A stretch of DNA of 64,000 nt, taken from IMG/VR virus record IMGVR_UViG_3300001525_000208, positions 15,019-79,018 of that record; one strand, given 5' to 3'. The notes beneath the pieces are model-generated. The model searched no databases, was not told where the DNA came from, and worked only from the letters and a program-made list of their open reading frames with translations. The translations under genes were made by a program, and so were the position numbers. This DNA is from a virus (taxonomy: Duplodnaviria; Heunggongvirae; Uroviricota; Caudoviricetes). Positions 14,474-60,940 of this stretch are shown here, in pieces. Positions within the stretch are counted from its first letter, which is position 1. Each line of letters begins with the position of its first letter.

Positions 14474-14829
14474 TTATTCAAATAAATCTTGCCATCCTGT
14501 ATCAATAGCATCAATTAATTTTTTAGCTTGGATTATATAAAATCTATAATCAATTTTATAGTCTTTCATAGGTTTTTCAACATATTCATTAAAAATAGTT
14601 GCACCGTATCCAACATTCACATTACTTTGTCTTCCGTCTCCGAAATCTTTATACAATGTTCCACCATTAGTAGATATGTAATATCTAGTAGTTCTATTTA
14701 ATTTGTCTTCAACTACTTCGTCATCTCTAATAGTTCTAAACATTGCTGTAGATTTAGAATTTACTTTTAATCTTAAACAGAAATCATATATATCTGTACA
14801 ATTCATAATTGTTTCAGATATAGGAATAC
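14474..14829 (-). CDS. polB: Family-B DNA polymerase, exon 2 (C-terminal thumb region, including KxY-like KNY/TRYY motifs). The exon start is uncertain within 14802-14829.
   Basis: The MNCTDIY... frame is open upstream to about 14970. It contains an RYY..GG..YKDFGDG segment resembling the post-motif-C region of PolB. It lies immediately 3' of a group I intron. Confidence 0.55.
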
Positions 14830-15945
14830 CATATACAAAATAATTCTTTACTGCTAAGGGGACTATTCTTGCAGATGGGTCTTTATGATACTCTTTATAA
14901 ATTTCATAGTCTCCTTTTAATTTAATGTGTTCACATTCAGGAGAATTATCAGTGTATACTGCGATGTAGTTATTTCAAGTTATTCGTCTGATTTCTCAGA
15001 AGCTTGGACTATATCTTTATTATTAATTCTTATAATTCTATGTTTTTTAAAGATTACATCATTTATTTTCTTTTTATTAAATGTGGCTATTACATTTTTA
15101 AATCCTAATAATTCTAACTCTTTATATAATATATTTTCTGCAATTAAATCTCCATTAGAATTATAAATTGTATAAGTCCATTTAGTTAAATTTTTTGACA
15201 TTAATTCGCTTTGTTGAGTTTTTCGCTTGTTGTTATCTTTCCAATATTCTTTAAGTTTATCAGAATGATCTTTATGACATCCGTTTTCCCAATCTTTTTT
15301 AGCACGAATACCTATTTTTTCTTTTGTTTCTTCTGAACAAAAACATTTCCCTTTAGAATCCCATCTTAAATTATATCCTTTATTTGGATTTAAGGAATCT
15401 AATTCTTTCATCCAATATAATTCTTTTTCTGCTAAAAGTTGTTCTAAATTAGAATCTTTAATATCAAAATTTTCAACTAAATAATATTCAAAATTATCTT
15501 CTCCATATTTTTTGACAGCATTTAATAAATGTGGATTTTCATTATAATTCCTATTATCTATTTTAATGTCTGTCATATGTTGATGTAATCTTTTATAACA
15601 ATTTTTTGATTTACCGACATAGATTTTTCCATTTATAGAATTTTTTATTACATAAATTCCTGGAAAATTGCTGTTTCTTTTAATATTTTCATAAGTTATA
15701 TAATTAATTATTTATATAGCAATAAATCAAAATTTTGACATATAATTATTAAAATTCATAATACCCAGCGTTTCCATTTAAATTTTAAATGTACTCTACT
15801 CACTTCCGTTAAATAACGTGTTTTCGATAGTCTCTGAACCTTCTTCTACATAGAAGCTTGGCTGCTGATTAGTATACGATTAATCGTCACGATTTGCGCT
15901 TCAACTTTCCAGCAATTAACCGGGTTACGACGCAAATATTATCTT
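14802..15945 (-). mobile_element. Group I intron in polB carrying a GIY-YIG homing endonuclease gene. The 3' end is uncertain (14802-14829).
   Basis: Conserved group I elements were found on the minus strand:
- P-like AATTGCTGGAAAG (plus 15905-15917)
- Q-like AATCAGCAG (15860-15870)
- R GGTTCAGAGACTA (15825-15840)
- S-like AAGAATAGTCCC (14859-14870), which completes P7 (GACTA/TAGTC).
P1 has exon GACGU pairing with IGS GCGUC, with U.G at the splice site. The TAA that appears to end the polB ORF lies inside the intron. Confidence 0.7.
14980..15711 (-). CDS. GIY-YIG homing endonuclease (intron-encoded). The first in-frame ATG is at 15576, but the GIY-YIG motif lies upstream of it.
   Basis: PGIYVIKNSINGKIYVGKS is encoded at about 15610-15663, in frame with the MTD... 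ORF. The frame is open back to a TAA at 15712-15714 and contains no ATG/GTG/TTG. Confidence 0.7.
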   Translation of the reverse strand: MINYITYENIKRNSNFPGIYVIKNSINGKIYVGKSKNCYKRLHQHMTDIKIDNRNYNENPHLLNAVKKYGEDNFEYYLVENFDIKDSNLEQLLAEKELYWMKELDSLNPNKGYNLRWDSKGKCFCSEETKEKIGIRAKKDWENGCHKDHSDKLKEYWKDNNKRKTQQSELMSKNLTKWTYTIYNSNGDLIAENILYKELELLGFKNVIATFNKKKINDVIFKKHRIIRINNKDIVQASEKSDE

Positions 15946-17372
15946 ACGTCCCTCACGCACATCTTTGAGTATACAGTTTCTTCAATTGTTAGTCCCGTTT
16001 CTTCAGTTAATTGATCATTAACTTTTCTTATCTTATCTAAATCCTCTTTAGGTACATATAAGGTTTGCCCATCCGTGTTAGTCTGAATGAATTTCAGTCT
16101 AGGGCATACTTTGACCCATCTTTCTGCCCACATACAGATAAATATCTGTCCTGCAATAGTAGTTTTAAAGGTATATAATGGATCATATAAGAAGGATTTT
16201 TCCTCATTAGACTTGCCATATGTGCCATTCAAAATAAGTTTATATCCTTCAATTAAAACATTATCACGTTGATTTTTAGGCTTATGTTTTTCAGCTAATC
16301 GTGCATCTATAAATCCAATATATTGTTCATTGAATACAGGACCTAAATGTTCAGGATATAGTCCTAATGATTTTGAAATACTCGGGTAGAGCGAACCGAC
16401 ATCGTAGTCTACGATAACCCATTCGTCATTAGTATTCCAAATTCTTGGTCTAGCGCAGCCGTGAGAACCTCCAAGTCCAAAATCAAACTTATAATCGTGA
16501 AATATCACAGACTGTTGAAATTCACCTTTAATTCCTTTGATTGTGATATGTTTTACTGTATCTAAGAATTGATTAAATTCTTTAGACTCAATTTTACACC
16601 ATTTAGGAATACAATCTGATAATTTTATTCCTTCAGGTCTAGGAGTTCCACCTTGTCTTTTTAATTCATTTGGTAATATTCCTACTTTTCTTGCATATAA
16701 ATTTAAAATAAGCTCTTCTCCCATAGGTACATCACCCATATTGAGAACATTTACTTTAAATTTCTTGTTTAAATCCTGCCTAAGTTTAATTTTATTTTTT
16801 CCTTTATATAATGGATATTCCGTTTTACCGAGAGTAGTAAGGAAAAATAAATATGTGGCATAAACGTCATTCTTATTATAAGTAAGAATGCATTTTTCAT
16901 CACCTTTTTTACACCAAGTTGTATGATGAATAGGCATTTCTTCTACATTAGGCATCCTCATACATACTTCTAGGTCCTTGAGACTACATAATCTAGCTTT
17001 ATTATTGTAATGCCAGATTTTGTAAAGATCTAGCTGTTTTATGAGTACATTTCTTTCAGCAATAACAGAAAACTCTTGTTCAATTATCTCTTGTGACTTC
17101 TTATATAACTTTTGAGCTAATTCTTGCCCATCTAAGAATTCATAATCATTAATAAAATGACGTAAGAAATGATGCTCTAACGGGTAATCATATGAAAGGT
17201 TGTTGAACCCAACCTGTATTAATTTATCTCTATTTAAATGCTCATATAGTGATTTAGAGTCGTTTCTCCAATCACAAATAACAAATTGATAATACTTATC
17301 TTCTTTAGGACAATATCCTGTATAAGTAAATACATTACTTAGACATTCTAAATCGTATATTTCTAATATCAA
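15946..17372 (-). CDS. polB: Family-B DNA polymerase, exon 1, with a TTG start
   Basis: Exonuclease motifs:
- Exo I: DLE at residues 7-9
- Exo II: FNNLSYD
- Exo III: YNKND
Polymerase motifs:
- motif A: DYDVGSLYPSI
- motif B: KLILNGTYGK
- motif C-like: TNTDG
The track ORF ends at a TAA at 15939-15941, which lies inside the intron. The true exon ends after ...CVRDV at 15946. Confidence 0.8.
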
Positions 17373-22627: not shown

Positions 22628-23974
22628 TCATTTTTGAAAAATATAAGTATCACCTCTAGTTCTTGATAATGCTACATATTGTAATTGTCGTAAATTTTCA
22701 GGATCACGATTTCGCATAACATCTGTCATGTCGACATATACATTATTATAACTAGAACCTTGTGATTTATGAATAGTTAATGCGTAACCTCTATCAAAAG
22801 ATTTTTTTCTAATTAATCTTCCGTCAAATCTTAAATCTACAGGTGTTGTAAAACTATCTAAAACACTATAATATTTACCCCAAGTCATACCTCTGTATTT
22901 TGGGAGAGCATCAATTGCTTGTAATCTTAAACTATCTATATGAGCAGCTAAAGATTCAAAAATACTTGGATCTATATTTTTATCAAGTATTTTAATATTA
23001 TGGGTTTCATCATTACCTGTATCATATAAAGACAATTCAAATGCAGGTAATGACATAAAGTATGGAATTCTAATATCTATAGGTTTAGGGTCTTTTACTA
23101 ATAAATAATCCATAGAGTTCCAAAAATTGTACTTATTAATTTTCAGATTCTCACATCCCATTAATATTTCACCTTTATGCCAATGTTTAGAATCTCCAAA
23201 TATATGTTTAGCAATTGCTTCATTATAATTACTAACTCTGTTATTAGTAAATGCCAATATTTTAGATTCAAAAATGTCATGATTATCTATAGCTCTTTTT
23301 ATTCCATTTTTACACAAATTAAAAAATTCAATAAAATTAGACTCACAGAACACATTACCACTCTCACTAGTAGAAGTATTAAAGTGAAGTATTTGATGTT
23401 CTCTAAGAGTCTCTAAGATAGGCATAATAGCACTTTCTGAAGACTGTCTATAGATTTTAGTCAAATTAAATGAATCTTTCAAATCATATACTAAAGATAC
23501 TCTATCTGAATCTACAGGCTTTAACTGACATTTATCTGAAATAAATAGAATCTTACTCTTAAATTCAGAGCATTTTTTAAGCAAAATTCTAAATAAATCA
23601 TCACTTATCATTGAAGCCTCATCACAAATTACTAAACCTTTATAAGGAATCATTCCTGAATCCTTACCCATTTTAAACAATAAATCTTTAAAATCTAATT
23701 CAATTATATCTAAATTAGGAGATAAAGATAAAAGTTTATGTAATGTAGTAGCATCTCTTTTAGAATAGTATTTAATTACTGCTTTAGCTTTATGTGTTGG
23801 TGCGCAAAGACAATAATCAATACCTGTATCTTCAAGCCAATCTATAATAGTAGAAATAAGAAAACTTTTTCCACTACCTCCAGGACCCGTTAATGAAAAA
23901 GCAGGCTTATCACTTCTGATAAATTTTTTAATCTTATCAAAAGCGATAGCCTGCTCTTCTCCTAATTTAATCAT
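22628..23974 (-). CDS. Dda/RecD-like SF1B DNA helicase
   Basis: Walker A GPGGSGKSF, Walker B LVICDEASMI, and C-terminal TIHKSQGSSY typical of RecD/Dda helicases. Confidence 0.75.
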   Translation of the reverse strand: MIKLGEEQAIAFDKIKKFIRSDKPAFSLTGPGGSGKSFLISTIIDWLEDTGIDYCLCAPTHKAKAVIKYYSKRDATTLHKLLSLSPNLDIIELDFKDLLFKMGKDSGMIPYKGLVICDEASMISDDLFRILLKKCSEFKSKILFISDKCQLKPVDSDRVSLVYDLKDSFNLTKIYRQSSESAIMPILETLREHQILHFNTSTSESGNVFCESNFIEFFNLCKNGIKRAIDNHDIFESKILAFTNNRVSNYNEAIAKHIFGDSKHWHKGEILMGCENLKINKYNFWNSMDYLLVKDPKPIDIRIPYFMSLPAFELSLYDTGNDETHNIKILDKNIDPSIFESLAAHIDSLRLQAIDALPKYRGMTWGKYYSVLDSFTTPVDLRFDGRLIRKKSFDRGYALTIHKSQGSSYNNVYVDMTDVMRNRDPENLRQLQYVALSRTRGDTYIFQK

Positions 23975-24464
23975 TTAATAAAATAACCTTATTATTTTTT
24001 AAAGATTCTTGTACATCTATAATTCTTTGATTGGTCGAACCTCTCCATTTTAGATTTAAATTTCTTTTAGTATAATCATATTTACCATCTATTAATACTG
24101 TAATATATTTAAGTAATTCGGGATATTTATTTTTAATATCTTCATACGAATACCCTGTCCAAATCCAAATAGATTTATTATATATATTACAAAAATGCAA
24201 AAACTTTAAAGTTTCATCATAAGCATTATTATTAAATAGATGATAAAATGGATCTCCTCCTAATATAGAAATTCCATCAATTTTAGAATTATTAATATAT
24301 GTTTTTAATATATCATAATCCAGAGGTTCTCCTTGATCAGGATTCCAAGTTTGTGGTGACCAACAATCTTTACAGCAATTATTACATCCTGCTAACCATA
24401 TGGAACACCTAATACCTGGACCATTAATCACATCATATTTTTTATATTCAATAACATTAATCAT
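23967..24464 (-). CDS. nrdG: Anaerobic ribonucleotide reductase activating protein NrdG
   Basis: Cys cluster GCNNCCKDCWSP. It sits immediately downstream of nrdD exon 2 (the start codon abuts the nrdD stop). Confidence 0.7.
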   Translation of the reverse strand: MINVIEYKKYDVINGPGIRCSIWLAGCNNCCKDCWSPQTWNPDQGEPLDYDILKTYINNSKIDGISILGGDPFYHLFNNNAYDETLKFLHFCNIYNKSIWIWTGYSYEDIKNKYPELLKYITVLIDGKYDYTKRNLNLKWRGSTNQRIIDVQESLKNNKVILLND

Positions 24465-24538
24465 TTAGAAGTGTTTTACTCTATCGTTAATGTCTCCAAC
24501 TCGTCCTTTACTAATTCCGTTAGTTAGAACACCTATAT
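24465..24538 (-). CDS. nrdD: nrdD exon 2 (encodes YIGVLTNGISKGRVGDINDRVKHF*)
   Basis: It completes the glycyl-radical motif RRLCG|YIG. The NrdD C-terminal ...RVKH tail is present. It is preceded by a G (omega-G) at 24539. Confidence 0.7.
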
Positions 24539-24542
24539 CATT

Positions 24543-25061
24543 TTATACCCTGCTTTTCAACATATTTATTTTATTATTAAAATAATCTTTTATATTTTTC
24601 TTTTCTATATCCGAAAGTTTATCAATTTCAGTTTGAATTGCTTTATCATTTTCTTTAAATCTAAATTCTTTTTGGAAATAAACTTCACATAAATAACGCA
24701 AATACACAGCTTCCTCTTTTTTATCAAATTGCTTAAAATAATATCTTATGTTTTTATATGTAAAATCTATTTTCCATTTAAGGTTAGATTTTAATTGAAT
24801 AACTCCTCGAAATCCTGATTTGTTATTTTTACATTTATCCATATTTAACTGATTATCTTCTTTATTTATAATTCGTAAATTTGTTTTACGATTATCTAAA
24901 GAATTTCCATTAATATGATCAATTTCTTTTCCGACAGGATTTCCTAGAATTAATCTGTGAAAATATTCTTTTTGTGAATTTTGATTGCCTGTAACTAAAT
25001 AAGGTTTTTCACCTTTATCTTTTAATACAGTTCTCCATTTAAATTGTTTTGCCTCTTTCAA
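24543..25061 (-). CDS. HNH endonuclease with AP2 DNA-binding domain (intron-encoded homing endonuclease)
   Basis: EIDHINGNSLDNRKTNL is an HNH motif and SGFRGV is AP2-like. The frame stays open upstream to about 25156. Confidence 0.7.
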   Translation of the reverse strand: MKEAKQFKWRTVLKDKGEKPYLVTGNQNSQKEYFHRLILGNPVGKEIDHINGNSLDNRKTNLRIINKEDNQLNMDKCKNNKSGFRGVIQLKSNLKWKIDFTYKNIRYYFKQFDKKEEAVYLRYLCEVYFQKEFRFKENDKAIQTEIDKLSDIEKKNIKDYFNNKINMLKSRV

Positions 25062-25158
25062 ATTATCTTTGTCGAATAAATATGTATATAATACATTTCC
25101 ATATTGATCATATGTATCAATTTCACACTTATCATCTAATATTCTTATTTCATTTGGA

Positions 25159-25320
25159 TCAAAAAACTCCTCTTGAATTTGAATCTAAATTATGACCAAA
25201 TTTAGTAAATTGATGTAAATGTTTCTTACATAAACACATATTGAATTTTTTACTAAAGCTAACAATTTTTTCATTTGAAGAAATTCCACAAATTTCGCAA
25301 TACCTAATAACTTTTCGCAT
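25159..25320 (-). CDS. Small Cys-rich (zinc-ribbon-like) ORF inside the nrdD intron (53 aa)
   Basis: MRKVIRYCEICG...CLCKKHLH. Its stop overlaps the open upstream extension of the HNH frame, offset by one frame. Confidence 0.3.
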   Translation of the reverse strand: MRKVIRYCEICGISSNEKIVSFSKKFNMCLCKKHLHQFTKFGHNLDSNSRGVF

Positions 25321-25588
25321 ATAAATATAAATTAAAATAATAATAAAGGGATTAGACTATACAATCATCTAAAATTAGATGCACCTTGGTAGTCGTTGAG
25401 AGCTTCCTTATAACTATATAAATATACGTTTATAATTTTGGGATTCCACAAAATTACAGTAGTTAATTGGCTATCTCTGCTGATTGTCCAATTTTTATAA
25501 ATTTTATTTAAAATTATAAAACTCTAAGGATTTTCCAGCATATTCGGTGTTTTCTATAAATATTACTATTTATAGGGGCAATAGGTTT

Positions 25589-27635
25589 ACCCACATAATC
25601 TTCTTATAGCATATAATTGATGCGGATTAACTTCCCCACAATTAGGGCAACTAAGTTTACCTTCAGAATCCATATGAATTTCTCCTTCATACCCACAAGT
25701 ATAACATACATCACATGAAGTAGTGTTTATTTCACAATACATCATATTATCATATATACACTTAAGAATATTAAGAATAGCTTCAGGATTCTTCCTTACA
25801 TCAGAACATTCTACGTAGCTTATGCTGCCTCCTGATGAATATTCTTGAAAAGGAGCTTCAAATTCTATCTTTGAATAACCATCAATAGGATATGTAACAG
25901 GAATATGATAACTATTAGTTATATAATCTCTATCATTTACCATATACTCTTGAGGAAATTGTTTCAAAGCTTTAGCAAAAGTAGTTGTCGTACTTTCAGC
26001 GGGAGAACCATATAAAGATAAAGCTAATCCGTATTTTTCTTTATTGTAATTGGCTCTATCATACATATGTTTAATAATATCTAACCCCATTTGTTGTCCT
26101 TCTTTAGTAGGATATTCTTTTCCAAAATGATATACACATTCTGAAATTCCCATATATCCTATAGAAGCAGAACAATATCCATCTTTAATTGCTTCACCTA
26201 TTTTAGAACCTCTAGGCAATCTTGCAAAAGCACCGTAGTTCCATAAAATAGGAGCAACATCAGTACTTGTTTCAGAGATTTGACTATAAATTCTAAATTG
26301 TTCAGCTGAGATACTATCTATGATAGTATCTAATTTACTTAAGAAATCATTATAATCTTTAGATTCTAATGCAAAGTAAGGTAAATTAATAGAAATGACT
26401 CCAACGTTTAATCTGCCCCAAAATTTATAATTTCCTTCACTATCTTTCCAAGGATGAAGGAAGCTGCGACATCCCATGCTTGGAAATACATTTCCCTCTT
26501 TATATTTCTTCATTATCTTAGCAGAAATATAATCAGGTACCATTCTTTTACAAGTACATTCAGCTGCAAGTTGAGTCACATAATAATACTTAGTATCAGA
26601 TGTAATATTATCTTCATCAAGTACATATAGAATTTTAGGAAAAGCAGGATTAATATTTTGTCCTGTTGGACCTTTCATTCCTTGTATTCGTTGTTTAAAC
26701 AACTCACATATGAGAGCTACATTCTCTTGAACATACTCTTCATTCTCGTGTATATAACAAAATACTGAGCAGAAAGGGGATTGCCCATTTGTACTCGTCA
26801 TTGAGTTGAGTTGATACAACAACGTTTGCATCGAATCTTTAATTTCTTTCTCTAATGCTTCTTCTACTAATTGCTTTTTAACGTAGTCAGGGATAGTATC
26901 ATAGCTTCCGAAGAATTTTTCATAATACTCTTTACTAATTCTTACAAACGGCGCTAAATGAGACAAGGTAATACTATTTCCACCATATTGACTTGAACTT
27001 ACCGCTGTAAGTATTTGAGTTGCAATTGTAGTAGCTGTTCTAAGACTGTGAGGCTTTTCAATTTTCTTTCCGTTAACTACAGTACCATTTTGAAGCATAT
27101 CTTCCAAATTAATTAATGAACAATTTGTAATACCATGCATAAAACGATAATCTGTATCATGGATATGAACTGCACCTTTTTTATGCAATTCTAATAGTTT
27201 AGGATCACATTCTACTTCTTTATAAAGTTTTTTACATACTTCGCCAGCAATAAGATCACGCATCACATTAAATTGTTTTGCATCCTTATTACCATTTTCA
27301 GTAGTTACTTCATTAGTTTTACCTGAAACTATTTCTTCTATAGTTGTATTGAATTTACTATTATCTGATAGATTTCTAGCTAAAGCGTGTTTATATCTAT
27401 AAAGAATATACTCTTTAGCTATATCAGGATAATCAAAATCCATTAGCAGTTCTTCTATCTGATCTTGAATTTCTTCAACACTAATATCTTCCCAGATAAT
27501 TACTGAATTTACAATGTCTTGTAACGTTTCATTTGATATTACAACATTACAAGACAAAAAAGCCTTTTGAATAGCAGAATATACTTTCCGCTTATCAAAA
27601 GGCTCTTTTGTTCCATTTCTTTTTAAAATGTTCAT
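25589..27635 (-). CDS. nrdD: Anaerobic ribonucleoside-triphosphate reductase NrdD, exon 1
   Basis: Length about 680 aa. C-terminal Zn ribbon CDVCYTCG...CPNCG. It ends ...AIRRLCG immediately before an intron-borne TAA, which truncates the conserved RxCGY glycyl-radical motif. Confidence 0.8.
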
Positions 27636-27704
27636 AAAATTTAATATTTAATTGTTATAAAAATACTATATTAAATATAACAATTAAATATTAATTATCA
27701 AAAT

Positions 27705-32946: not shown

Positions 32947-33735
32947 TACATTAATTCAACATCCATAATTTCTCCTAAAAGAAATCCACAATCGTAAGCT
33001 TCGTCTAGAAACTCTTCCCAATCACTACAATAAGGAGTATCATGGTCTCTAGCAAATTTTGAAATGTATTTGTCTTTAGCTTCATTCATTGAACGAGCCA
33101 TAACATAATCTGTCCAAACAACATTTTCATTTAAATCAGCTACAGCTATTATATATTTATTCATATCTTAGTTATTATAAGATTTAAGTAATTCGTAGAA
33201 AAAGTTTTTATCAATCATAACCAATTCACCAGCACTGCTCATATTTACTTGGCCTTCTTTAACTTCTTGACGATTCCACATTATTACAAAAGGTTTATCT
33301 TCAAGAGGACAAGCACTTCTAATTTTAAAATAATTAGGAGTGTTGGTAGTACATTTAAGTTGACAATAGAAAGGTAATTTATTTTCTGTATCTACTAAAT
33401 CAACTTTCATATCATCCATTCTTTTGGACTGACTTCTAGATGTTACAACACCTGTGTAACCAAGTTCATTTAATTCGTGAGCTATTTTCAATTCATAGTT
33501 GTTACCTTTACTTTTAGAATAAGAACCTGAACGTCTTTTCTTTTTTGCTTTTTCTTGGTCACAAAGCGGACATCCTGAATGAGTTAATACTTTTTTAGCT
33601 ATTTGATGAACTTCTCCGTGAATAGGACATTTATAAATTATGTCTTTATCTAAACCCTAATAATTACTTTCTGAAAAATCAAATTTATCTCCGTGTTTAA
33701 GCTTTACCTTTTCAACAAAAGACTCTATAGTCTGT

Positions 33736-49712: not shown

Positions 49713-49785
49713 AGCTTCTACTCAGATTCGAACTGAGAACAACTTCATTACAAATGAAGAACTCTACCAATTGAGCTATAGAAGC
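49713..49785 (-). tRNA. tRNA-Thr (anticodon UGU)
   Basis: Manual fold: acceptor GCTTCTA/TAGAAGC, D-arm GCTC..GAGT, anticodon stem CTTCA/TGAAG with loop TTTGTAA, T-arm CTCAG-TTCGAAT-CTGAG. Confidence 0.8.
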
Positions 49786-49964
49786 AGAAAAGTATATTAA
49801 ATAAATTTAATTTCCATCATTTATAAAATATACTTTTATAATCAATAATTGACTAGTTTGTGTATTTCCGTAATACTCAGTTTTCTTTCTGAGAACGACT
49901 TTTGTAACGGACAAAAGAATAACAGCTTATACAATCTTTTAATTCCTTAATAAGAAGGAATGGA

Positions 49965-50037
49965 AATGTGGGCCTGGGGAATATTGAAATCCCGATCTTC
50001 GGTTTATGAGACCGCTGCTTTAACCTCTAAGCTACAA
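49965..50037 (-). tRNA. tRNA-Met/Ile2 (anticodon CAU)
   Basis: Acceptor GGGCTTG/CAGGCCC, anticodon loop CTCATAA, T-loop TTCAATA. One mismatch in the anticodon stem. Confidence 0.7.
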
Positions 50038-53000
50038 GCCCTATGATTTATATTACAAGCATTTATAAGCTTGTTCTATAAATCTATCAATGTATTTATC
50101 ATTATAAAAACAATCTATATTATATCTAAATTGTACTTTTCTTCCAACTTTATATTTAGATTGAATATAATTAAATACTTTTTGACCTTTTCTCCAATTA
50201 TCAGGGAGAGTTTTTATATTTTTAAAAATATCTCCTCTAAATTCTTCAAATGTCATAAAATGTGTTGATTTTATTGTCTTTATAATCTCTTACTATCGTA
50301 GAAGATTTTCTTGGAAAATGTTTAATATAATTTTCATAAGATTGTGCAAAACTAAAATTGGTAATAAACGCACATAATAAAAATATATATCTAAACATTA
50401 TAAATCTTTATTTAAAATTATCTTAAATCTTTTTAAATTGAGCATAAGTATGATTTAAAATAACAGGTTTATTATTTTGAGGATTTAATTCCTTAGTTCC
50501 ATCAGGATTAAGAATTTGAATCTTACAAAAAGAACATCTTTTTTCAACAATAATACCGTGTTTTCCTAAATCATTCTTATGCGTATGAGTAATTACTACT
50601 TCATCTCCTTCTTTATATAGAGTACGTAGTTTCATATTCTGTTATTTGTTTTTTAATATTTTCAATTAAAACATCTAATTGTTTTTTTCTCTCTTCTTTA
50701 TCTTGAATACAAGAAAGTTTAAAACAAGGTCTACTATAATTTTTAAATTGAAATTTTATAGGAATATTTTCCTCAGAGCCATAATAATCTAAAATTACTT
50801 TAGCTATTATAGCTTCCATATTTTTCTTTTTAAGTTTCATTTAAAAAATAAAATTTTAAAATCAATTTTGCAATTCTTTATCTAAAGATGGAATATAACA
50901 CGGAACAGCTAATATATCTTTAATTTTTAGTTCTGTTTCATATTCATCAACATCTGTACTTAATAATTGATCACAATCATCATAAATTCTATATTCTTCA
51001 TAATGACAAGTATTATAAGCTGTAATTAATATATTATTATAATACAATAGAAAGTTTTGTTGCCAAGTATGTGAATCTAATGCAATACAATTAAAATCTA
51101 ATATAACAGCTTTAATAATAGAGTTATTATTAGATATATTAATTATATCATATTGTTTATAATCATTCATAATTTTTAAATTCTTCAATATTATTAATAA
51201 CTATAGGTTGCCCATCTAAGAATAGAAAATAATCTGCTAGGGTATCTACATAATAAGTAGGGCCTGAGGACATTGTGACAGAATCATCTATTATTTTTGT
51301 AATAAGTACTATTCTATTACCAACTTTATCTCTCAAATACCCAAAACAATCATGCTTCTTAGCTTCTTTAATAAACTCTGAAGTTTTACATACTTTCTTT
51401 GTGTATTTGATTCTAAGAGGAATTTTGAATTCAACACATTCTTTTATTCTTTCAGGATCAGTAGTTTGTTTATAATTATTGGTTGTATTATCCCAATATT
51501 CTACTTTTTTATTCTTAAGTAATGCATCAAAGCATTTAATAATAATATCTTGTTTAGTCATATTTATTCAATATAATCATCAGTAGTACCAATTAATTTA
51601 GCTGTTTTTTCATTGTAAGGGAGACAATAAGTATACCAACCATTAATAGTAGTATAAGGAGCTTCTTTGCAAGATTTATCTTTATAACTAAAGAAATCAA
51701 TAGTCCAAGTATCAAGTTTATTATCTCTTACAACAACCTTGTCAAAAGGTTTAAAATGGTATTTTTCTTTCTTTTTAAGACTAAAGTTGTCCCAGTTTCT
51801 TACTTCTTTTGAAGGGAAGAGAAGACATTCTCCATTTATGTTATATTGGCCATAACTATTAAATGTAAAAAATCCTATTTCTTCATCAACAAAAACAGTT
51901 AGATCTCCATTATCTAAAATTCTACTCAAATATACGTCACCACAGAGAGGGCTATAAAGTTTGAATCCTTCACGTAAGAAAGCTTGATAATATCCTTGAG
52001 TTGCATCTTTGAGTAAATCTGCTATATTATTCATATGTCACTGTTTTTAAGTTATATTCTATGTTATTGAATTCTCCTTCTGTAGTATCAGAGATTTCTT
52101 TACCATCACCATCTTTATAAAATCTTTCAAAAGCTTCTGTAGGACTTGTAGCATCTATTTCATATACTCTAGTCCTAGTAAGATGTTCTATTTGTGTTAT
52201 TTGATATGTTTTCATAAGGATTTCAATAAAAAACAAATCATAAAGTATATAAATACTAGAGTAAATACATACTAAATGATAGGTTACAATTATAAAACCA
52301 AACAAAAATGTCTATTATTCTACTAGTTTACCAAAAGGAGTATTATCAGCAAATTGAAATGAATCTAATGCTTCTTTAAAAGTATAAGCTAGATGTTCAT
52401 CAGGATAAGCATCTAGCATAAGTTCATCTTCAGCTACTGATATAATAGGTTGTTTAATACCTTGTTTAGTGAATGTAATCCAACTAAAAGGTTGATGTTT
52501 GAGCATTTCTTCCCAACATTCTTCTTTAGTTTCAAAAGAAACATATTTAGGTTCAGGTTTTACTCTGAAAGTAATATCTGCTTCCATAAAGGTTTGAATG
52601 TCTACAATTTTAAGTTCATCTAGGTCTATCCAAGCCCCTGTATCATAGACACCATTATCTTTATATTGAATAGTTTTACCTTCTGAATATGCTTTAAGAA
52701 TAGGAAGTATGTCTTTAATTTGATTTGATGTCATAATTTAAAAATAAATACGTTTATACTTTATATTACCACATTTTGTACATTGAAGGAGAAATCCTTT
52801 AGCACATTGCTCATGAGTTTTATCGTACAAAGGAACTTCATTTAATAAAGTCCAATGATGACGATGAAATAATAAATCGTAAATTCTAGTAAACATATCT
52901 AAACATAATTAAAATCTAATAAAATGAGGAAACCTTGTTAATGTCTTATTTTACATCTCATTGAGAAAACCTCTTTGTCTACATATTACTATGTAGTTCT

Positions 53001-53310
53001 GCTTATTTGTTTTACTGTGGATTCTAAAAGCATTTTCTTATGTAACATCGTCCTATTTTATATAGGATTAAAGATATACAGCCACAAACTCTATTAAAAG
53101 AGATAGTATAATTAAAATTATGAAGAAGATTAAAATAATAAAAGAGAGTGTATAAAATAGTTTAATGTTTCATCACTATTAATACACTCTCTTGTCGTAA
53201 TTAAATTACCTGTACTGCTGCTTGGTCACAGTCCTACCACCCTTCGTATATCTTGTTGCACAAGGGCGAAAAAGTCACCAATTTGTAGATTATTGGGAAC
53301 TGAAACATAG

Positions 53311-53384
53311 TGACTCCGACGAGATTCAAACTCGTGACAAATAATTTAGAAGATTATTGCTCTATTCAGCTGAGCTACGGAGTC
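53311..53384 (-). tRNA. tRNA-Arg (anticodon UCU)
   Basis: Acceptor GACTCCG/CGGAGTC, D-arm TAGCTCAGCTGAATAGAGC, anticodon stem ATAAT/ATTAT with loop CTTCTAA, T-arm CGAGTTTGAATCTCG. Confidence 0.8.
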
Positions 53385-53534
53385 ATATTTACAATAATAA
53401 TATTTATATTATAAATAAAAAAGAGTAGTTATAAAACTACTCTTTTCACTTATAAATTAAGTCTTACTTGAACCATATAAATAATTCATTTTAAAATATA
53501 ATTTTAAGTTAAACAATTTATTAAGTAAGACTTT

Positions 53535-54092
53535 TTACCAAGTATAATTAGGATCACATAATACTAAATATTTGCTATAATTATAATCTTCATTACCAAG
53601 TCTTACATTATGACCATTGATGTTTTCTATTTTAGCATCAGGCATATAAGGACTATAATCATAATGTCTATATGTAGTATATGTAATATCCCATAAAACT
53701 TGATAACGATATTTATAATCACTTTTTAAATCTCCTTTTAAATTCTTTTTGGGAATTTTACAAAGAAGATAAGGTTCATCCCAAGATAACCAAAGCATAT
53801 ACTCATGATAAATCAATCTTGCATAATAGAACTCATTATCTTCAAATAAAGTTATTTCCCATAATTGGCTAACTCCAACAGGCCACCCTGTGGGTCCAAC
53901 TTCGACATCAAATCCAGTTTTTGCTTCACTTAATACTAGATTAGCATTTGGAATATTAATGTCATGATCTAGGTTGGTAATATTAAAATCTAGATTTTTC
54001 TTACTAAACACTCGATGTTGAAATCGAAAGATACTCCAACTAATAAATACGACAATTATTAGTCCTAAGAGAATACTTATAAAATATATCAT
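53535..54092 (-). CDS. Hypothetical membrane-anchored protein
   Basis: N-terminal TM segment MIYFISILLGLIIVVFISWSIF. Confidence 0.4.
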   Translation of the reverse strand: MIYFISILLGLIIVVFISWSIFRFQHRVFSKKNLDFNITNLDHDINIPNANLVLSEAKTGFDVEVGPTGWPVGVSQLWEITLFEDNEFYYARLIYHEYMLWLSWDEPYLLCKIPKKNLKGDLKSDYKYRYQVLWDITYTTYRHYDYSPYMPDAKIENINGHNVRLGNEDYNYSKYLVLCDPNYTW

Positions 54093-54109
54093 ACAGATTA
54101 ATTATTGGT

Positions 54110-54260
54110 TACAATTAAAACCCTACTAGTTTGACTAAAAAGTCAGGGACTAGTAGGAAAAAGAACAACGTTGTTGCTGTATAGAGAGTCGAACTCTATA
54201 ATTGACCATCACAGCAAGAATATTCTCCATTTGAGAATATTCTGATTAATTAATTACTAA
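54110..54260. repeat. Cluster of perfect palindromes and hairpins in a non-coding region
   Basis: - cctactagt...actagtagg, with a nested tgact-aaaa-agtca (54122-54157)
- 12-bp palindrome aacaacgttgtt (54164-54175)
- tatagag-agtcgaa-ctctata inside gctgt...acagc (54176-54215)
- an 11-bp stem agaatattctc...gagaatattct (54216-54245). Confidence 0.6.
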
Positions 54261-54383
54261 TTAATAGGAATCATACAACTAGGAGTAAGTAAAGTTGTTG
54301 ATGCCAATAAGTTACTAATTGCTTTTAAAATTCTTTTCATAATCTAATATATTTTAGTTAATAATAAGTTATCTTTAGAATTG

Positions 54384-54470
54384 TAGCTCGAACGGGACTC
54401 GAACCCGTAAGTTCTTTTCAGAACAGTAGATTTTCATAAGAGTTTCACATCTCTCTTGGACTATGTCTTC
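54384..54470 (-). tRNA. tRNA-like element or fragment. It has a canonical T-arm and acceptor 3' half plus a variable-arm-like hairpin, but no convincing 5' half or anticodon arm.
   Basis: Minus strand has ACGGG-TTCGAGT-CCCGT followed by TCGAGCT, preceded by GTTC-TGAAAA-GAAC. No matching 5' acceptor strand was found within 150 nt. Confidence 0.3.
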
Positions 54471-54582
54471 TCCTTATTATTTATAACTTAGGAGGTTGGT
54501 ATATAGTCTCTACACATTTATGTAATAAAATTACAATTTAGCTCGGCGTTATTATCATTTTAAGGCTGATACCTTCACCGAA

Positions 54583-54873
54583 TTAGCCAACTTCTACATC
54601 AGAGATTTCTCCCTGTGTACTCATACCTATATTTTTACCTCTATAATTATCCGTAAAAGCATGACAATTAGGACATAATACTTGAAGATTACAAAGCCTT
54701 AAATCATCCTTAATACCATTTATATGATGTAACTCTAATTTAATAGGCTTTTCTAACCATTCAGTTCTTCCACAACACTCACATTTATATTCTTTTACAT
54801 TTTCTTTTAGTAATCTTTCACGAAGATGATTAGTGTTTATAAATGTAGAATGTTCTACTAAGATTTCAGACAA
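54583..54873 (-). CDS. HNH endonuclease (free-standing)
   Basis: Two CxxC pairs and ELHHINGIKDDLRLCNLQVLCPNCH. Confidence 0.65.
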   Translation of the reverse strand: MSEILVEHSTFINTNHLRERLLKENVKEYKCECCGRTEWLEKPIKLELHHINGIKDDLRLCNLQVLCPNCHAFTDNYRGKNIGMSTQGEISDVEVG

Positions 54874-55435
54874 AGGTTGTTTTTGTTTAATTTGTCTATA
54901 TCTTTTTCCCTAATTCCATACTTTTCCAGTCATATGAGAGGTATCTAAATTTAATTCATCAATTTTTCGTTTTATAGTATCATAGTTACTTCCTGCAACT
55001 TTAAGTCCTATTTTTCGTAGAACTTTTGCATAAGATAAGCTAGTTTTTACTGCTTCAATAAATTGAATATATCAAATTAAATTTAGGTGAATTTATTTTC
55101 TTCAAAGTCTACTGCGTTTACCTATTTCGCCATCGAGCCGATAACTAGTTTATTTTATTCCTAAACTAGTAAAAGAATACTTTTTAATCTTCACATACAA
55201 CTACTGAATCTGTATTAATAGAATCAGAATCAACTACAGTAGAATCTTGTTCAGAAGATGATTCTACATGTTTGTTACAACTAATAAATGAAGTACTAAA
55301 AAGTACTGCAAATACAAAAATAAGCTTTTTCATATTAAATATATTTTTAATTATTAATATTCAAATTAAAAATTACTCTATTCTCACGAACCAAGTAATT
55401 CAAGTTATCAAACGTTATTTCACATAATATAATTG

Positions 55436-55517
55436 TTGGAATAATAGGAATCGAACCTATATTATCTGGCCCAAAATCAGATGTAATAACCATTATACTA
55501 TATTCCAGTTTGTAGAA
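55436..55517 (-). tRNA. tRNA-Gln (anticodon UUG)
   Basis: Acceptor TGGAATA/TATTCCA (U1-A72, as in bacterial tRNA-Gln). Anticodon loop TTTTGGG with a 4-bp stem plus A.C. T-arm ATAGG-TTCGATT-CCTAT. Confidence 0.65.
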
Positions 55518-55582
55518 CCGATATTCACATATGAGTTCTACTTCAACTATAATCACTTAAAACATTTAACGAACTATGCTTG

Positions 55583-55656
55583 CGCTTTAGGTAGGATTCG
55601 AACCTGCGACCCTCTGATTAACAGTCAGATGCTCTAACCAACTGAGCTACTAAAGC
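55583..55656 (-). tRNA. tRNA-Asn (anticodon GUU)
   Basis: Acceptor GCTTTAG/CTAAAGC, D-arm TAGCTCAGTTGGTTAGAGC, anticodon stem TCTGA/TCAGA with loop CTGTTAA, T-loop TTCGAAT. Confidence 0.8.
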
Positions 55657-56990
55657 TTAGATAATATTTTATTAATATTATCATTTTAATTACTAATACT
55701 GTTTATAAATATACTCTTTATTTTTTTAATTACAAAAATGCTTAACTGTTAAATGATTTTAAGAGCTAATTATGATTTTTGTAATGTTGAGTTTACAATC
55801 CAAGATACTATAAATACAGATTCAATTTTCGGATTTAATTCGTGAATATTAAAACCCCTTTCTTTAATATCATTAATAATATTATCTTTAGAATCTAATA
55901 AATCGGGTGTAAGTTCTACTAAACAATAAGATTTATTATTTCTTGCTTTATTAGTGATTATATTATTTAAATCTTTAATAAAATCACTAATCCGTTTGTC
56001 TAAGGATTCCAATTTTCCTGTAATTGAAAGTAATCTTGCATCTTCACTTGTAATTGGTTTTTGTTTCGGTGAAATAATTGTTTTTAAAATATCTGTCATG
56101 GTTTGTAAATTTTATAACCTTTCTTTAATAAATAATTAATACAATATGATTCTTCATTGAATACTAATTCAGTATTAGTAGAATTACGTTTTCTAGCATA
56201 ACATTGTTTAGTTTTCTCATTTTTGTATTCTTTAATTTGAGTCATTAAATTTGCGATTTTTTCTTGGAGAATATTAGTTGGACTAAAATAATACTCTCTT
56301 TTATCTCTAATTATAGAATTAGTATTAATTAATTTTTGAAGAAGTGCTAATCCGTTAGGATATTGTTTGAATTCTTTTTCAAGTTCGTAACGTAAAAATC
56401 TACGACCTTTACTTGCTAATCTGAAAGAATTAATTTCTATTGTAATATCTGAAATTGTCATTGTTGTTTGAATTTTATCTTGTTATTAAATAAGGTATTC
56501 TCTAAGATACTTATTTTACTAAGCACTTAAAGAATACCGAGCCTTTAGTATATTCCACCTAAAGGGAGATTTCTACATTAAAGATTGATATAATATGTTG
56601 AATTTCATGCATATAGTGAATGTCAGCAATGAAGACTGATAAGCTTCCAAAACCTGTAATAATTTCTAGATATACACCAATGCAATCACTTTCCATGTTC
56701 AAACGAATTCTTCTATTATCATCAATATATTTAACAATATTCTTAATATACTGATTTTCTTTATGTTTATAGAAGTGATTTGATTTGAGATGTTTTTTGA
56801 AGATTTCACATGGTTTTATTTCTTCTAAAGGTACAGTTAATGTATCTTCATCTTGAAATTGAATCTTAGCGAAAGTTTCACTTACACCAAGAATAATTAC
56901 TACATCATGGTGATAAGTTACAATGTCGTTGATTTTGAGATCTGTTGCTTTCATTTTGTTGTTGTTTTAGTGAGTGAATAAATGGATTTG

Positions 56991-57062
56991 TCCTCATAAT
57001 AGGAATCGAACCTATAACTATATCTTATAAATGATTTGTTTTACCAATTAAACTATATGAGG
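56991..57062 (-). tRNA. tRNA-like gene with a degenerate anticodon arm (possibly Ile-UAU; the loop contains TTTATAA)
   Basis: Perfect acceptor CCTCATA/TATGAGG, D-stem GTTT/AAAC, and T-arm ATAGG-TTCGATT-CCTAT. The 17-nt anticodon-arm segment AATCATTTATAAGATAT cannot form a 5-bp stem. Confidence 0.45.
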
Positions 57063-57636
57063 TTGTTTTAGTGCAATAAAAGTATCTATTCTCACGAACC
57101 AATACTTTTGGATGAAAAATCGTTTCATCTGATTAAATTCAATAACTCACTAAAACGTAATTAATTCTATTTGTCTGAGTAAAGCTCTTTGAGCCTTAAT
57201 CTCTTTTCTAAAGAAATCATACACTCTTTTTCTTTTATCAGTTCTTAAGTCTGAGAGTGTAGATTTATTGAGAATTCTCCCATTTCTGTTCATACAAACA
57301 GTATAAAGGGAGATGAGTTTATGCAGTTCTTCAATGCCATTAAATTCTTGGCAAGGAAAATACATATTTCTGCATACTTTGATGTTCTTTTTAACTGCTT
57401 CTTTTGAAGCTTCAGCTAAAGAAGAATATTGTTGATTATCTCTTGTGAGAGTGTTGTCTTGGATGAAGTATATGTAATACATAGTTGTTATTGATTTAAT
57501 TGTGATTCATAATTTTCAATTAGTTTAAGATCTTCGTGATTAGTCATCTGATAACCTACAAAAAAGCTAAGAAGACAAAGACAAATTACTAAAAGTGGAA
57601 TATTACGTTTCATTGTTGTGAATGGTTATTAAAAAG

Positions 57637-57720
57637 TACCTCTAATGGGATTTGAACCCATACTTCCTTATGGAAATAGCATTTTAAGTGCTACGTGTCT
57701 ACCACTTCCACCATAGAGGC
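57637..57720 (-). tRNA. tRNA-Leu (anticodon UAA), type II
   Basis: Acceptor GCCTCTA/TAGAGGT, anticodon stem TAGCA/TGCTA with loop CTTAAAA, long variable arm TTTCCATAAGGAAGT, T-arm ATGGG-TTCAAAT-CCCAT. Confidence 0.8.
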
Positions 57721-58645
57721 TTTGTTAATTATTATTGTTTGTTCTTTTTATCTTGAGTGTAACAAATAGTCATTAATAAACAACCATTTGTAAATGTTGA
57801 TAATGCTAATCCTACTACAAATGCAATAGTACAAGGGTCATTGTTTAAAAGACCTATACAAGTACAAATAAGTAGAACTAAAGTACAGCAACAAGAGAAA
57901 ATTAATGATTTCATTTTGTTTGGTTTTATATAACTGAGGTTTTAGATATTATTTTCATACCAATCTGCTACAGTGTCAAATTCTTCTTCTGTAAGGTCTG
58001 ATACTGTAGTATAGTAGTTACAAGCTGTTATGTATTTAGCTTGTGAGCAAGTGGACTCTATAATAGAATCCAATTTGTTAAGGCATTCTTGTTTTGTCAT
58101 TATCTTATACGATTTAATTTATACTATTGCGAGGTTTCACAGACACAGAGCCATTATCTATATGATAGTTTCTCTCTGTGTTTCGTCCAGTCTCATCAGT
58201 ATGAATTTTAACGTCTCCTGGATGACGATTTTTTACTTTTTAGCAAACAAGAAATGAACATTAATTTGATAGTTTGACCTTATACTAACTATTCAAGGTT
58301 TTGTTGATAAAATGGTTAATTCGTATTAAGTTGGGATAATTTTGGATTTGGTTGGTGTGGGTGATGGTTGTGTTGGGAGGGTGGTGATGAGCTGCTTCGT
58401 TCTTAACATATCACGAACGATACACCAATACACCTTTCCATCAATTAACCAATCTTCTCCACCACGAATACTCATCCATTTACCAGACTCAACATCTTTG
58501 TACAAACTGTCACCATACTTACGTACTTTGACAGTCTTAAGTCTTTCGTCAGGATGCATAATATGTATACATATTAAAATCTAAAAACTTAAGTTACTTC
58601 GAATGACTCGTTATAACCTAAATTTTTAGATTTTTTCAACATATA

Positions 58646-60906: not shown

Positions 60907-60940
60907 ACAAAAAACGCAGATTCTTTAATTAGAATCTGCG
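60907..60940. terminator. Hairpin terminator (bidirectional), 3' of late gene 60946..62145
   Basis: aacgcagattct-ttaatt-agaatctgcgtt is a 12-bp perfect stem flanked by A/T runs. Confidence 0.6.

What the first reader, a model, noticed from the sequence alone, without database searches (positions are those of the whole stretch)
24465..27635. nrdD interrupted precisely at the glycyl-radical motif (CG|Y) by a 1050-nt group I intron with an HNH-AP2 endonuclease
The 682-aa NrdD ORF ends ...RRLCG directly followed by TAA, so it lacks the Y of the RxCGY motif and the C-terminal tail. Group I elements P, Q, R and S are found 3' of that point. At 24538 the sequence resumes after an omega-G with AT ATA GGT..., which encodes YIGVLTNGISKGRVGDINDRVKHF. 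This restores CGYIG and the NrdD tail, and it ends 1 nt before the nrdG start. The intron houses an HNH-AP2 ORF and a small Cys-rich ORF. The arrangement parallels the T4 nrdD (sunY) intron but is inserted at the catalytic glycyl-radical codon.
Basis: partly seen in the sequence, partly recalled or inferred. Interest (0 to 1): 0.75.

Follow-up and report, generated by a model that had tools for sequence, protein, structure and literature searches.

The report
Self-splicing intron splitting phage nrdD
A phage gene for anaerobic DNA-precursor synthesis (nrdD) is split exactly at its catalytic glycine by a mobile self-splicing group I intron whose own nuclease gene is broken; it is a clear example of a well-known kind of selfish element, at an insertion site I could not find described.

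Summary
On the minus strand, nrdD exon 1 (27635-25589) ends ...RRLCG plus the first base of the Tyr codon. A 1050-nt insert (25588-24539) follows. Exon 2 (24538-24465) supplies YIGVLTNGISKGRVGDINDRVKHF*, and nrdG starts at the next base. The joined 706-aa protein aligns end to end with solved NrdD structures, and G682 corresponds to T4 G580, the radical glycine.

The insert is a group I intron. It has a U.G pair at the 5' splice site, a terminal G, a P10 pairing with exon 2, and P2-P9 helices including the P3/P7 pseudoknot. Twelve family members support these helices by covariation. Near-identical relatives show the site both empty (L198) and occupied (L199).

Two corrections. The "Cys-rich ORF" and the "HNH ORF" are one HNH endonuclease gene broken by one extra T. 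AP2 is only weakly supported. The Rfam match is sub-threshold (16 bits). Splicing is inferred, not shown.

The same site carries introns in other gut phages, including cultured Enterocloster phages whose nrdD is annotated as a truncated CDS. T4's nrdD intron sits elsewhere. Verdict: a real, ordinary mobile intron and a new member of a known kind. Interest is modest.

The parts
25589..27635 (-). nrdD exon 1: ATP-cone plus class III RNR barrel, ending ...RRLCG and the first base (T) of the Tyr codon. G682 is the glycyl-radical glycine.
   Evidence: Pfam finds NRDD, ATP-cone and Gly_radical. G682 aligns with position 580 of T4 NrdD (Ala in the solved chain; that G580 is the radical site and the crystal form is G580A is from my own knowledge).
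24539..25588 (-). Group I intron, 1050 nt, beginning AAACCUAUUGCCCC and ending ...GGGUAUAAAAUG (terminal G at 24539).
   Evidence: Empty-site relatives.
25576..25592 (-). P1 and P10. Exon GGGU (25592-25589) pairs with the internal guide GCCC (25579-25576), giving U.G at the splice site. ACCUAU (25586-25581) in the P1 loop is complementary to AUAGGU of exon 2 (24536-24531).
   Evidence: Read directly from the sequence. In same-site relatives the guide changes together with exon 2: L032 AUAUUGGU/ACUAAUAU, L030 AUUUA/UAAAU, L105 UUUAGUU/AACUAAA.
25343..25575 (-). Ribozyme core P2-P8: P2 hairpin with GUAA loop, P3 CACC/GGUG, P4 UGCUG/CAGCA, P5, P6, P7 A-C(bulge)-GACUA/UAGUCU, P8 CAUCUAA/UUAGAUG. 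Only 4 nt (CCAA) lie between P7 and P3', so there is no P7.1/P7.2.
   Evidence: Rfam RF00028 full-model match 25598-25347, 16.1 bits, E = 0.071. Covariation over 12 family members: 89% of cells paired against 32-44% for slid controls, 17 pairs with double changes, P3 and P7 100% paired. nhmmer family profile E = 1.9e-44 (the window intron is one of the 12 sequences that profile was built from, so its own match is circular).
24543..25320 (-). Intron-encoded HNH homing-endonuclease gene in the P9 loop, split into ORFs 25320-25159 (53 aa, zinc-finger-like CxxC...CxxH) and 25061-24543. The second reading frame is open from 25184.
   Evidence: HNH_3 30.7 bits, cut-off 24.8; phrog_99, 5.9e-24; end-to-end alignment with the intact endonuclease of Enterocloster phage CB473P1, E = 2e-27.
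25161..25166 (-). T6 run carrying the +1 frameshift that breaks the endonuclease gene. It creates UUU-UGA.
   Evidence: L199, whose intron is 95% identical, has T5 here and an intact 258-aa ORF.
24539..24562 (-). 3'-terminal module: hairpin UGUU-GAAA-AGCA, then GGGUAUAAAAUG. It overlaps the last codons and the stop of the endonuclease gene.
   Evidence: The same module lies immediately before exon 2 in related introns with and without an ORF. Its stem covaries: CACU/GGUG, GAGC/GCUU, UGUU/AACA, CUAG/CUAG, UCGG/CCGA, UCGA/UCGA, UUGA/UCAA, UCUG/CAGA.
24465..24538 (-). nrdD exon 2: AT ATA GGT ... TAA, giving (Y)IGVLTNGISKGRVGDINDRVKHF*. It has no start codon of its own.
23967..24464 (-). nrdG (activase), whose ATG directly abuts the exon 2 stop codon.
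   Evidence: Fer4_12, 1.5e-37. The same stop/ATG abutment occurs in the intron-less relative L198.

Best explanation
This is a mobile group I intron inserted in phase 1, after GGG-T, at the glycyl-radical Gly-Tyr of a phage class III ribonucleotide reductase gene.

Inferred mechanism. nrdD, the intron and nrdG are transcribed together. The intron folds (P1-P10, with the P3/P7 pseudoknot). An external guanosine attacks after the U of GGGU, which is held by the guide GCCC. The freed exon 1 then attacks after the terminal G at 24539, with exon 2 aligned by P10. The ligated mRNA encodes a complete 706-aa NrdD carrying RRLCGYIG. Unspliced RNA would give a 682-aa protein that stops right after the radical glycine and lacks the C-terminal tail.

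The intron spread by homing. Its HNH endonuclease cuts intron-less nrdD alleles at this highly conserved sequence, and repair copies the intron in. In this window the endonuclease gene carries a one-base frameshift. This copy is therefore probably no longer mobile on its own, though it should still be splicing-competent.

Shown: sequence anatomy, fold covariation, and empty and occupied alleles. Inferred: splicing, homing and endonuclease inactivity.
For: - Exon restoration: the spliced protein is full length against Pfam NRDD (1e-142, 1-562/562) and against PDB 9d3x (5.3e-107) and T4 1h78 (2.1e-93), aligned through ...RVKH.
- Empty site in near-identical genes: P0001/L198 (97% aa identity over the 301-aa query, same neighbouring genes) reads TGCGGAT|ATATTGGG without interruption. 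Its tail is 24/24 identical to exon 2. L001 (78% identity) is also uninterrupted.
- Occupied site in a sibling: L199 carries the same intron at the same position, differing at 55 of 1050 aligned positions.
- Fold: Rfam RF00028 aligns over its whole model, starting at the exon junction. The covariation test supports P2, P3, P7 and P8, with 0 of 500 shuffles reaching the observed score on four of five measures (149 of 500 on the fifth, further pair types) and slid controls far lower. The 3' hairpin covaries. P10 changes together with exon 2.
- The same-site intron in Enterocloster phage CB457P1 scores 36.6 bits, E = 5.8e-8, against RF00028.
- Endonuclease: HNH_3 is above Pfam's cut-off. 187 homologues were found, mostly 250-260 aa.
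- Exon 2 is under purifying selection.
- The intron is more similar to L032's intron (87% nt) than the flanking exons are to each other (76% nt).
Against: - Rfam's curated threshold is not reached: 16.1 bits against 50. The match appears only when 321 nt are searched, and was absent from the 4-kb and 64-kb scans.
- There is no transcript or biochemical evidence for splicing of this copy.
- P1 has only 4 base pairs.
- The endonuclease is frameshifted, so present-day mobility is doubtful.
- The covariation alignment was selected through a shared 19-mer, and the structure was derived from the window sequence. Both inflate the paired percentage somewhat.
Confidence: 0.9

Rival explanations
1. Dead insertion: the element is a decayed intron that no longer splices. 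nrdD would then be a pseudogene producing only a 682-aa protein without the C-terminal radical-domain tail.
For: The endonuclease gene is already broken. The Rfam score is low. Phage nrdD may be dispensable.
Against: - Every core pairing is intact in the window copy, and substitutions relative to L199 keep the pairs: A-U to G.U in P2, C-G to U.G in P3, AGCA to GACA in the 3' hairpin.
- Exon 2 is 100% identical in protein to the tail of an uninterrupted relative and shows mostly synonymous change.
- The exon 1 ORF is intact over 682 codons, and nrdG is retained directly adjacent.
Confidence: 0.06
2. The gene works as a split protein. The 24-aa tail, or a longer C-terminal piece, is translated separately and assembles with the 682-aa body, as in the intron-less split nrdA of phage Aeh1, or by analogy with a spare-part glycyl-radical protein.
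For: Split RNR genes that function without splicing are reported (PMC3653736, read).
Against: - Exon 2 begins in mid-codon.
- It has no ATG, GTG or TTG in frame.
- It is preceded in frame by the endonuclease stop codon.
- The radical glycine would sit on the last residue of one chain and its partner Tyr on the other.
Confidence: 0.01
3. The insertion is an assembly artefact or chimera, not a real feature of the phage genome.
For: The window appears to come from a metagenome assembly. No exact copy of the two window ORFs I looked up (the 682-aa nrdD ORF and the 53-aa ORF) is on record.
Against: Independent contigs from other samples carry the same intron at the same base (L199 at 95% nt identity, L032, L030). 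Cultured Enterocloster phages carry introns at this site or one base upstream of it.
Confidence: 0.01
4. The endonuclease frameshift is programmed. UUU-UGA preceded by GGAG resembles, from my own knowledge, the RF2 +1 frameshift site, so a full-length enzyme would still be made at a low level.
For: The sequence AGAGGAG-UU-UUU-UGA-U would give ...GVF-DPNE... after a +1 slip. L032's homologue has a different +1 disruption in an A7 run.
Against: - The 95%-identical L199 copy has T5 and a plain 258-aa ORF.
- P0122 is an intact 258-aa homologue (83% identical to the window enzyme) that reads ...FLCKKHMHQF... without a break where L032's copy is disrupted.
- Most of the 120 listed homologues (187 found) are single ORFs of about 255 aa.
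- The disruptions are therefore idiosyncratic, as expected for decay or for a sequencing error.
Confidence: 0.03

Closest known systems
Phage T4 nrdD (sunY) group I intron with I-TevII
   Same: [quoted passage not shown]
   Different: - T4's insertion point lies between query residues 232 and 263, more than 400 residues before the radical glycine.
- Its endonuclease is GIY-YIG, not HNH.
- The window intron lacks P7.1/P7.2, which, from my own knowledge, are characteristic of T4's IA2 introns.
- The window family's profile does not detect any T4 intron.
Unannotated nrdD introns at or next to this site in Enterocloster phages CB457P1, CB473P1 and probably CB473P3 (not read), and in gut metagenome phages (MT835556, IMG/VR L030, L032, L105, L139; ENA L199)
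   Same: - The host gene is the same. The position is the same (after the Gly codon plus T) in CB457P1, MT835556, L030, L032, L105, L139 and L199, and one base upstream in CB473P1.
- They share the 3' module, stem-GAAA-stem-GGGUA... followed by the terminal G.
- CB473P1, L030, L032 and L199 carry the same HNH endonuclease family.
   Different: - CB457P1 and MT835556 have no ORF in the intron.
- L105 and L139 have the window-type intron 5' end. L105, which I read in full, also has the window-type 3' end and a GIY-YIG-like endonuclease.
- CB473P1's intron sits one base upstream (phase 0, after GGT), with the endonuclease gene ahead of P7 rather than in P9.
- GenBank annotates nrdD as a CDS that stops just inside the intron.
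Group I introns at catalytic motifs of other phage RNR genes (Twort nrdE, SPbeta bnrdE/bnrdF, T4 nrdB) and fragmented nrdD of Jug gut phages
   Same: [quoted passage not shown]
   Different: These are different genes or different sites. None of the papers I could read names the glycyl-radical Gly-Tyr as an insertion point.
HNH-AP2 homing endonucleases
   Same: An HNH_3 catalytic motif is followed by a GxRGV...KW...EEA segment. Several homologues have Pfam AP2 hits.
   Different: The window protein itself gives no AP2 hit. The gene is frameshifted. No solved structure matches by sequence.

Membership tests
Group I intron | 5' splice site after a U that forms a U.G pair with the internal guide sequence (P1) | tested here: met
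   GGGU|AAACCUAUU-GCCC: the U at 25589 pairs with the G at 25579, followed by 3 G-C pairs (read directly).
Group I intron | Terminal guanosine at the 3' end, and a P10 pairing between the guide sequence and exon 2 | tested here: met
   The intron ends ...AAAAUG at 24539. ACCUAU pairs with AUAGGU of exon 2. The guide and exon 2 change together in L032, L030 and L105.
Group I intron | Conserved core P3-P8 with the P3/P7 pseudoknot and a bulged-nucleotide G-binding P7 | tested here: met
   P3 is 100% paired with 3 of 4 pairs covarying. P7 is 100% paired, with A-U, G-C and U-A at the closing pair and an invariant G-C next to the bulge. P4, P5 and P6 are invariant, so uninformative. Overall 89% paired against 32-44% for slid controls.
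Group I intron | Score at or above Rfam RF00028's gathering threshold (50 bits) | tested here: not met
   16.1 bits, E = 0.071 in a 321-nt search. Nothing was found in the 4-kb or 64-kb scans. The 780-nt ORF in P9 lies outside the match. The ORF-less same-site intron of phage CB457P1 reaches 36.6 bits, E = 5.8e-8.
Group I intron | Guanosine-dependent self-splicing | not testable with these tools
   This needs an in vitro transcript with GTP, or RNA from infected cells.
T4-type (IA2) nrdD intron | Same insertion site and a P7.1/P7.2 extension | tested here: not met
   The site differs by more than 400 codons. Only CCAA lies between P7 and P3'. The profile does not hit T4 introns.
HNH homing endonuclease | HNH catalytic motif | tested here: met
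   Pfam HNH_3 at 30.7 bits, above the 24.8 cut-off. phrog_99 at 5.9e-24.
HNH homing endonuclease | Uninterrupted reading frame | tested here: not met
   +1 T in the T6 run at 25166-25161. L199 has T5 and an intact 258-aa ORF.
HNH-AP2 endonuclease | AP2 DNA-binding domain | tested here: inconclusive
   There is no Pfam AP2 hit for the window protein even at E <= 10. The L030 homologue scores 26 bits, below the 33.3 cut-off. Several homologues carry precomputed PF00847 hits.
Class III RNR (NrdD) | Full NRDD domain, catalytic Cys loop, C-terminal Zn-ribbon cysteines and the RxCGY glycyl-radical motif, with an adjacent NrdG | tested here: met
   All are met, but only after splicing. NRDD 1-562/562. 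MGCRSF at 387-392. CDVC...CPNC at 641-666. RRLCGY at 678-683. NrdG Fer4_12 at 1.5e-37.

The most novel reading that the evidence does not exclude
The Gly-Tyr codon pair of the NrdD glycyl-radical loop is an undescribed, widely used homing hot spot. Intron ribozymes and endonuclease genes appear to have assorted independently there. Evidence for this: two registers one base apart; endonuclease genes that are HNH, GIY-YIG-like or absent; and the endonuclease gene sitting in P9 in one lineage and ahead of P7 in another.

Because a stop codon follows the radical glycine directly, unspliced RNA would encode a complete but tail-less NrdD. Splicing efficiency could then gate anaerobic dNTP synthesis. 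For example, the dimeric enzyme might be poisoned by the tail-less form.
Probability: 0.05. Interest if true: 0.55.

Novelty: new member of a known kind. Interest (0 to 1): 0.3.

Why it matters
- Annotation: gene callers end nrdD at the radical glycine, so the enzyme looks truncated and inactive. This has happened in GenBank records of cultured Enterocloster phages, where the intron endonuclease and even nrdG are labelled hypothetical.
- Detection: Rfam's group I model misses this intron family at normal settings.
- Biology: the case adds a clean example, with empty, occupied and decaying alleles in 95-97% identical genomes, to the rule that homing endonucleases target the most constrained codons of essential enzymes. 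Here that is the radical-bearing glycine itself.
- It does not change any concept.

Tried and rejected
- Rfam scans of 4 kb, of the whole window and of five related loci (45 kb) found no group I match. A scan of the 2.4-kb locus L066, which holds an ORF-less family member, also found none. Only very short search spans recovered it.
I used an nhmmer profile instead.
- My first covariation count used one bracket type and mis-paired the P3/P7 pseudoknot. I discarded it and redid it with separate brackets.
- The 14-base pattern GGGTAAAS...TGCCCCT gave mostly chance hits. Only 3 of the 80 loci returned (of at least 119 matching stretches) had intron cores.
- Exact-sequence look-ups of the two window ORFs found nothing.
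- The promoter and terminator scan was no better than shuffles, with no signal ahead of the endonuclease gene.
- A PDB sequence search with the endonuclease found nothing.
- A weak tblastn hit of the C-terminal domain at 33408-33644 lies in an unrelated 107-aa ORF and was dismissed as chance.
- A programmed +1 frameshift was considered and largely rejected.
- Intein, group II intron and translational bypass were rejected by reading the sequence. There are in-frame stops immediately after the junction, I saw no reverse-transcriptase ORF or domain V, and the gap is 1050 nt.
- The intron subgroup (IA, IB and so on) was not assigned.
Full report
**What is there**

On the minus strand a 682-aa ORF (27635-25587) ends ...AIRRLCG and is followed directly by TAA. 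Take the T of that TAA as the last exon base. Then exon 1 is 27635-25589, the insert is 25588-24539 (1050 nt, AAACCUAUUGCCCC...GGGUAUAAAAUG), and exon 2 is 24538-24465. The join reads GGG T|AT ATA GGT and encodes ...RRLCGYIGVLTNGISKGRVGDINDRVKHF*. The nrdG ATG (24464) follows immediately.

The 706-aa product matches Pfam NRDD over the entire model (1-562/562, 1e-142), together with ATP-cone and Gly_radical. It aligns to the last residues of solved NrdDs: 9d3x at 5.3e-107 and T4 1h78 at 2.1e-93. G682 falls on T4 position 580. From my own knowledge that is the radical glycine, mutated to Ala in the crystal form. NrdG is a Fer4_12 radical-SAM activase (1.5e-37). The window holds no second nrdD or glycyl-radical domain.

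**Is the insert a group I intron?**

Rfam's RF00028 found nothing in 4-kb or whole-window scans. When only 321 nt were searched it aligned over its full length (model 1-253), starting at the exon junction, 25598-25347. The score was only 16.1 bits (E = 0.071) against a gathering score of 50. I therefore tested the fold independently.

The sequence shows the following features directly.
- P1: GGGU/GCCC, with U.G at the splice site.
- P10: a 6-bp pairing, ACCUAU with AUAGGU of exon 2.
- P2: a 9-bp hairpin with a GUAA loop.
- P3: CACC/GGUG.
- P4: UGCUG/CAGCA.
- P7: A-C(bulge)-GACUA/UAGUCU.
- P8: CAUCUAA/UUAGAUG.
- A 3' module: UGUU-GAAA-AGCA followed by GGGUAUAAAAUG.

A 19-mer from the P5'-P4'-P6 region recovered 22 IMG/VR loci carrying related introns. 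On a MAFFT alignment of 12 of them (not fitted to structure), 89% of pair cells are standard pairs, against 32-44% when the partners are slid. Seventeen pairs show changes on both sides. P3 and P7, which form the pseudoknot, are 100% paired with compensatory changes. None of 500 shuffles reached the observed values on four of the five measures; on the fifth (further pair types) 149 of 500 did.

The 3' hairpin stem covaries through nine variants and always sits just before exon 2. In same-site introns the guide sequence changes in step with exon 2. The ORF-less same-site intron of Enterocloster phage CB457P1 scores 36.6 bits, E = 5.8e-8, against RF00028.

There are only four nucleotides between P7 and P3', so the P7.1/P7.2 extension of T4-type introns is absent. 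I did not assign a subgroup.

**Empty and occupied alleles**

A Logan contig (L198) with the same gene order encodes an NrdD fragment (P0001) that is 97% identical to the window protein over the 301-aa query. It is uninterrupted here (CGAAGATTATGCGGAT|ATATTGGGGTT). Its tail is identical to the predicted exon 2 product, and its stop codon abuts nrdG in the same way. It has a different intron at NGQ|SPF.

An ENA contig (L199) carries the same intron at the same base, with 55 differences in 1050 positions. L001 (78% identity) and L002 are intron-less, while L030 and L032 are occupied.

Relative to L198, four of the 15 differences in 146 nt cluster within 15 nt of the junction. All four are synonymous, and they make the exon complementary to the guide sequence. 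This fits co-conversion, or adaptation of P1 and P10.

Exon 2 differs from relatives by 9-11 synonymous and 4-6 nonsynonymous codons. The intron is 87% identical to L032's, while the adjacent exon is 76% identical.

**The endonuclease**

The 53-aa Cys-rich ORF (25320-25159) and the HNH ORF (to 24543) are one gene. Removing one T from the T6 run at 25166-25161 gives a 258-aa protein. That protein passes Pfam HNH_3 and matches phrog_99. It aligns end to end, straight through the frameshift point, with the intact endonuclease in the nrdD intron of phage CB473P1 (E = 2e-27). L199 has T5 and an intact 258-aa ORF.

L032's copy is broken elsewhere, in an A7 run, while L030's copy is intact. Most of the 120 listed homologues (of 187 found) are about 255 aa. 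The frameshift is therefore a recent, idiosyncratic lesion or an assembly error, and a programmed event is unlikely.

Pfam AP2 does not hit the window protein. It hits L030's protein below threshold, and several homologues have precomputed hits.

The gene lies in the P9 loop, and its last codons encode the 3' hairpin.

**How common, and how new?**

T4's nrdD intron lies more than 400 codons upstream and carries GIY-YIG I-TevII. The family profile detects only the glycyl-site introns among the nrdD loci, and no T4 intron.

The same site is occupied in several other genomes.
- Enterocloster phage CB457P1, with an ORF-less intron.
- Enterocloster phage CB473P1, in phase 0 (one base upstream), with the endonuclease gene ahead of P7.
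- MT835556.
- A different NrdD clade (...KIVG|YLVK...). L105 and L139 show the same junction and intron 5' end. L105, read in full, carries a GIY-YIG-like endonuclease.

Of the 120 best C-terminal NrdD protein clusters, 5 stop at or just after the radical glycine.

In relatives, other interruptions fall at SQYG|G, NGQ|SPF, MG|CRSF (the motif aligned with T4's MGCRSF; from my own knowledge its Cys is the thiyl-radical cysteine), N|VGV and SGG|S. Most of these fall in short motifs that are identical or nearly identical in T4 NrdD or 9d3x.

Papers I could read describe split phage nrdD genes and intron-rich gut phages. None names this site. RNRdb reports more than 100 curated RNR introns without listing their sites.

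**Verdict**

It is a textbook mobile group I intron, a new member of a known kind. Three points are notable: its position at the radical glycine, the clean set of empty, occupied and decaying alleles, and its mis-annotation in public records. Splicing and homing remain inferred.

Noticed in passing
window 14474-17372 (-): The DNA polymerase gene is also split. ORF 17372-15939 matches phrog_1252 positions 56-500 and ORF 14806-14474 matches positions 553-652. Between them lie group I-like motifs (AATCAGCAG at 15870, TCAGAGACTA at 15837, TATAGTC at 15013) and a homing-endonuclease ORF at 15576-14980 (phrog_314). A GIY-YIG-like motif lies upstream of that ORF's ATG, in its frame, but out of frame with the ATG further upstream (about 15691), so this endonuclease gene may be disrupted as well.
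   Followed up: partly
window 58137-58228 (-): RAGATH-1 hammerhead ribozyme, 65.2 bits, above Rfam's gathering score of 56.3.
   Followed up: no
window 49713-62793: A cluster of eight tRNA genes, seven on the minus strand and one on the plus strand. The window is 28.3% G+C.
   Followed up: no
window 27641-27694: A perfect 19-nt inverted repeat (TTAATATTTAATTGTTATA / TATAACAATTAAATATTAA, 16-nt spacer) lies immediately upstream of the nrdD start codon. It overlaps the best promoter-like match in the region.
   Followed up: no
L032 (IMGVR_UViG_3300014039_000013), locus 2-8273: An nrdD 83% identical to the window's is broken into eight tblastn segments. The interruptions fall near residues 218, 285, 337, 388, 410, 603 and 682. 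Most of these lie in short motifs shared with T4 NrdD or 9d3x.
   Followed up: partly
L064 (IMGVR_UViG_3300033475_000009): An intron of the same family, with nearly the same flanks (AATGTGGGT|...|ATATAGGT), sits in a different gene. That gene reads GLGGIGSHL...DTVNVG|YIGKNKAQ, which looks ThiF/E1-like by eye. This suggests ectopic transposition to a look-alike site.
   Followed up: no
L052 / L054 (Enterocloster phages CB457P1 OP172753 and CB473P1 OP172755): GenBank annotates nrdD as a CDS that stops just after the radical glycine. The downstream nrdG and the intron HNH endonuclease are annotated as hypothetical proteins. Exon 2 (YIGTHYWNYGRTEEIRDRFVHLGDNE..) is unannotated.
   Followed up: yes
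L199 (ENA ERZ27245998 k119_192325), locus 328-4271: The sibling nrdD is mosaic. Residues 1-285 are only 74% identical to the window protein, while residues 285-706 are 94-100% identical. Introns lie at about 285, about 409 and 682. This looks like recombination at intron boundaries.
   Followed up: no
phage records CP069348.1 (Clostridioides phage pCD1602_4) and MK250020-28 (Prevotella Lak phages): Short blastn matches (76-83% identity) to the 5' part of the intron core. The Clostridioides phage match starts in the exon and may be another same-site nrdD intron.
   Followed up: no
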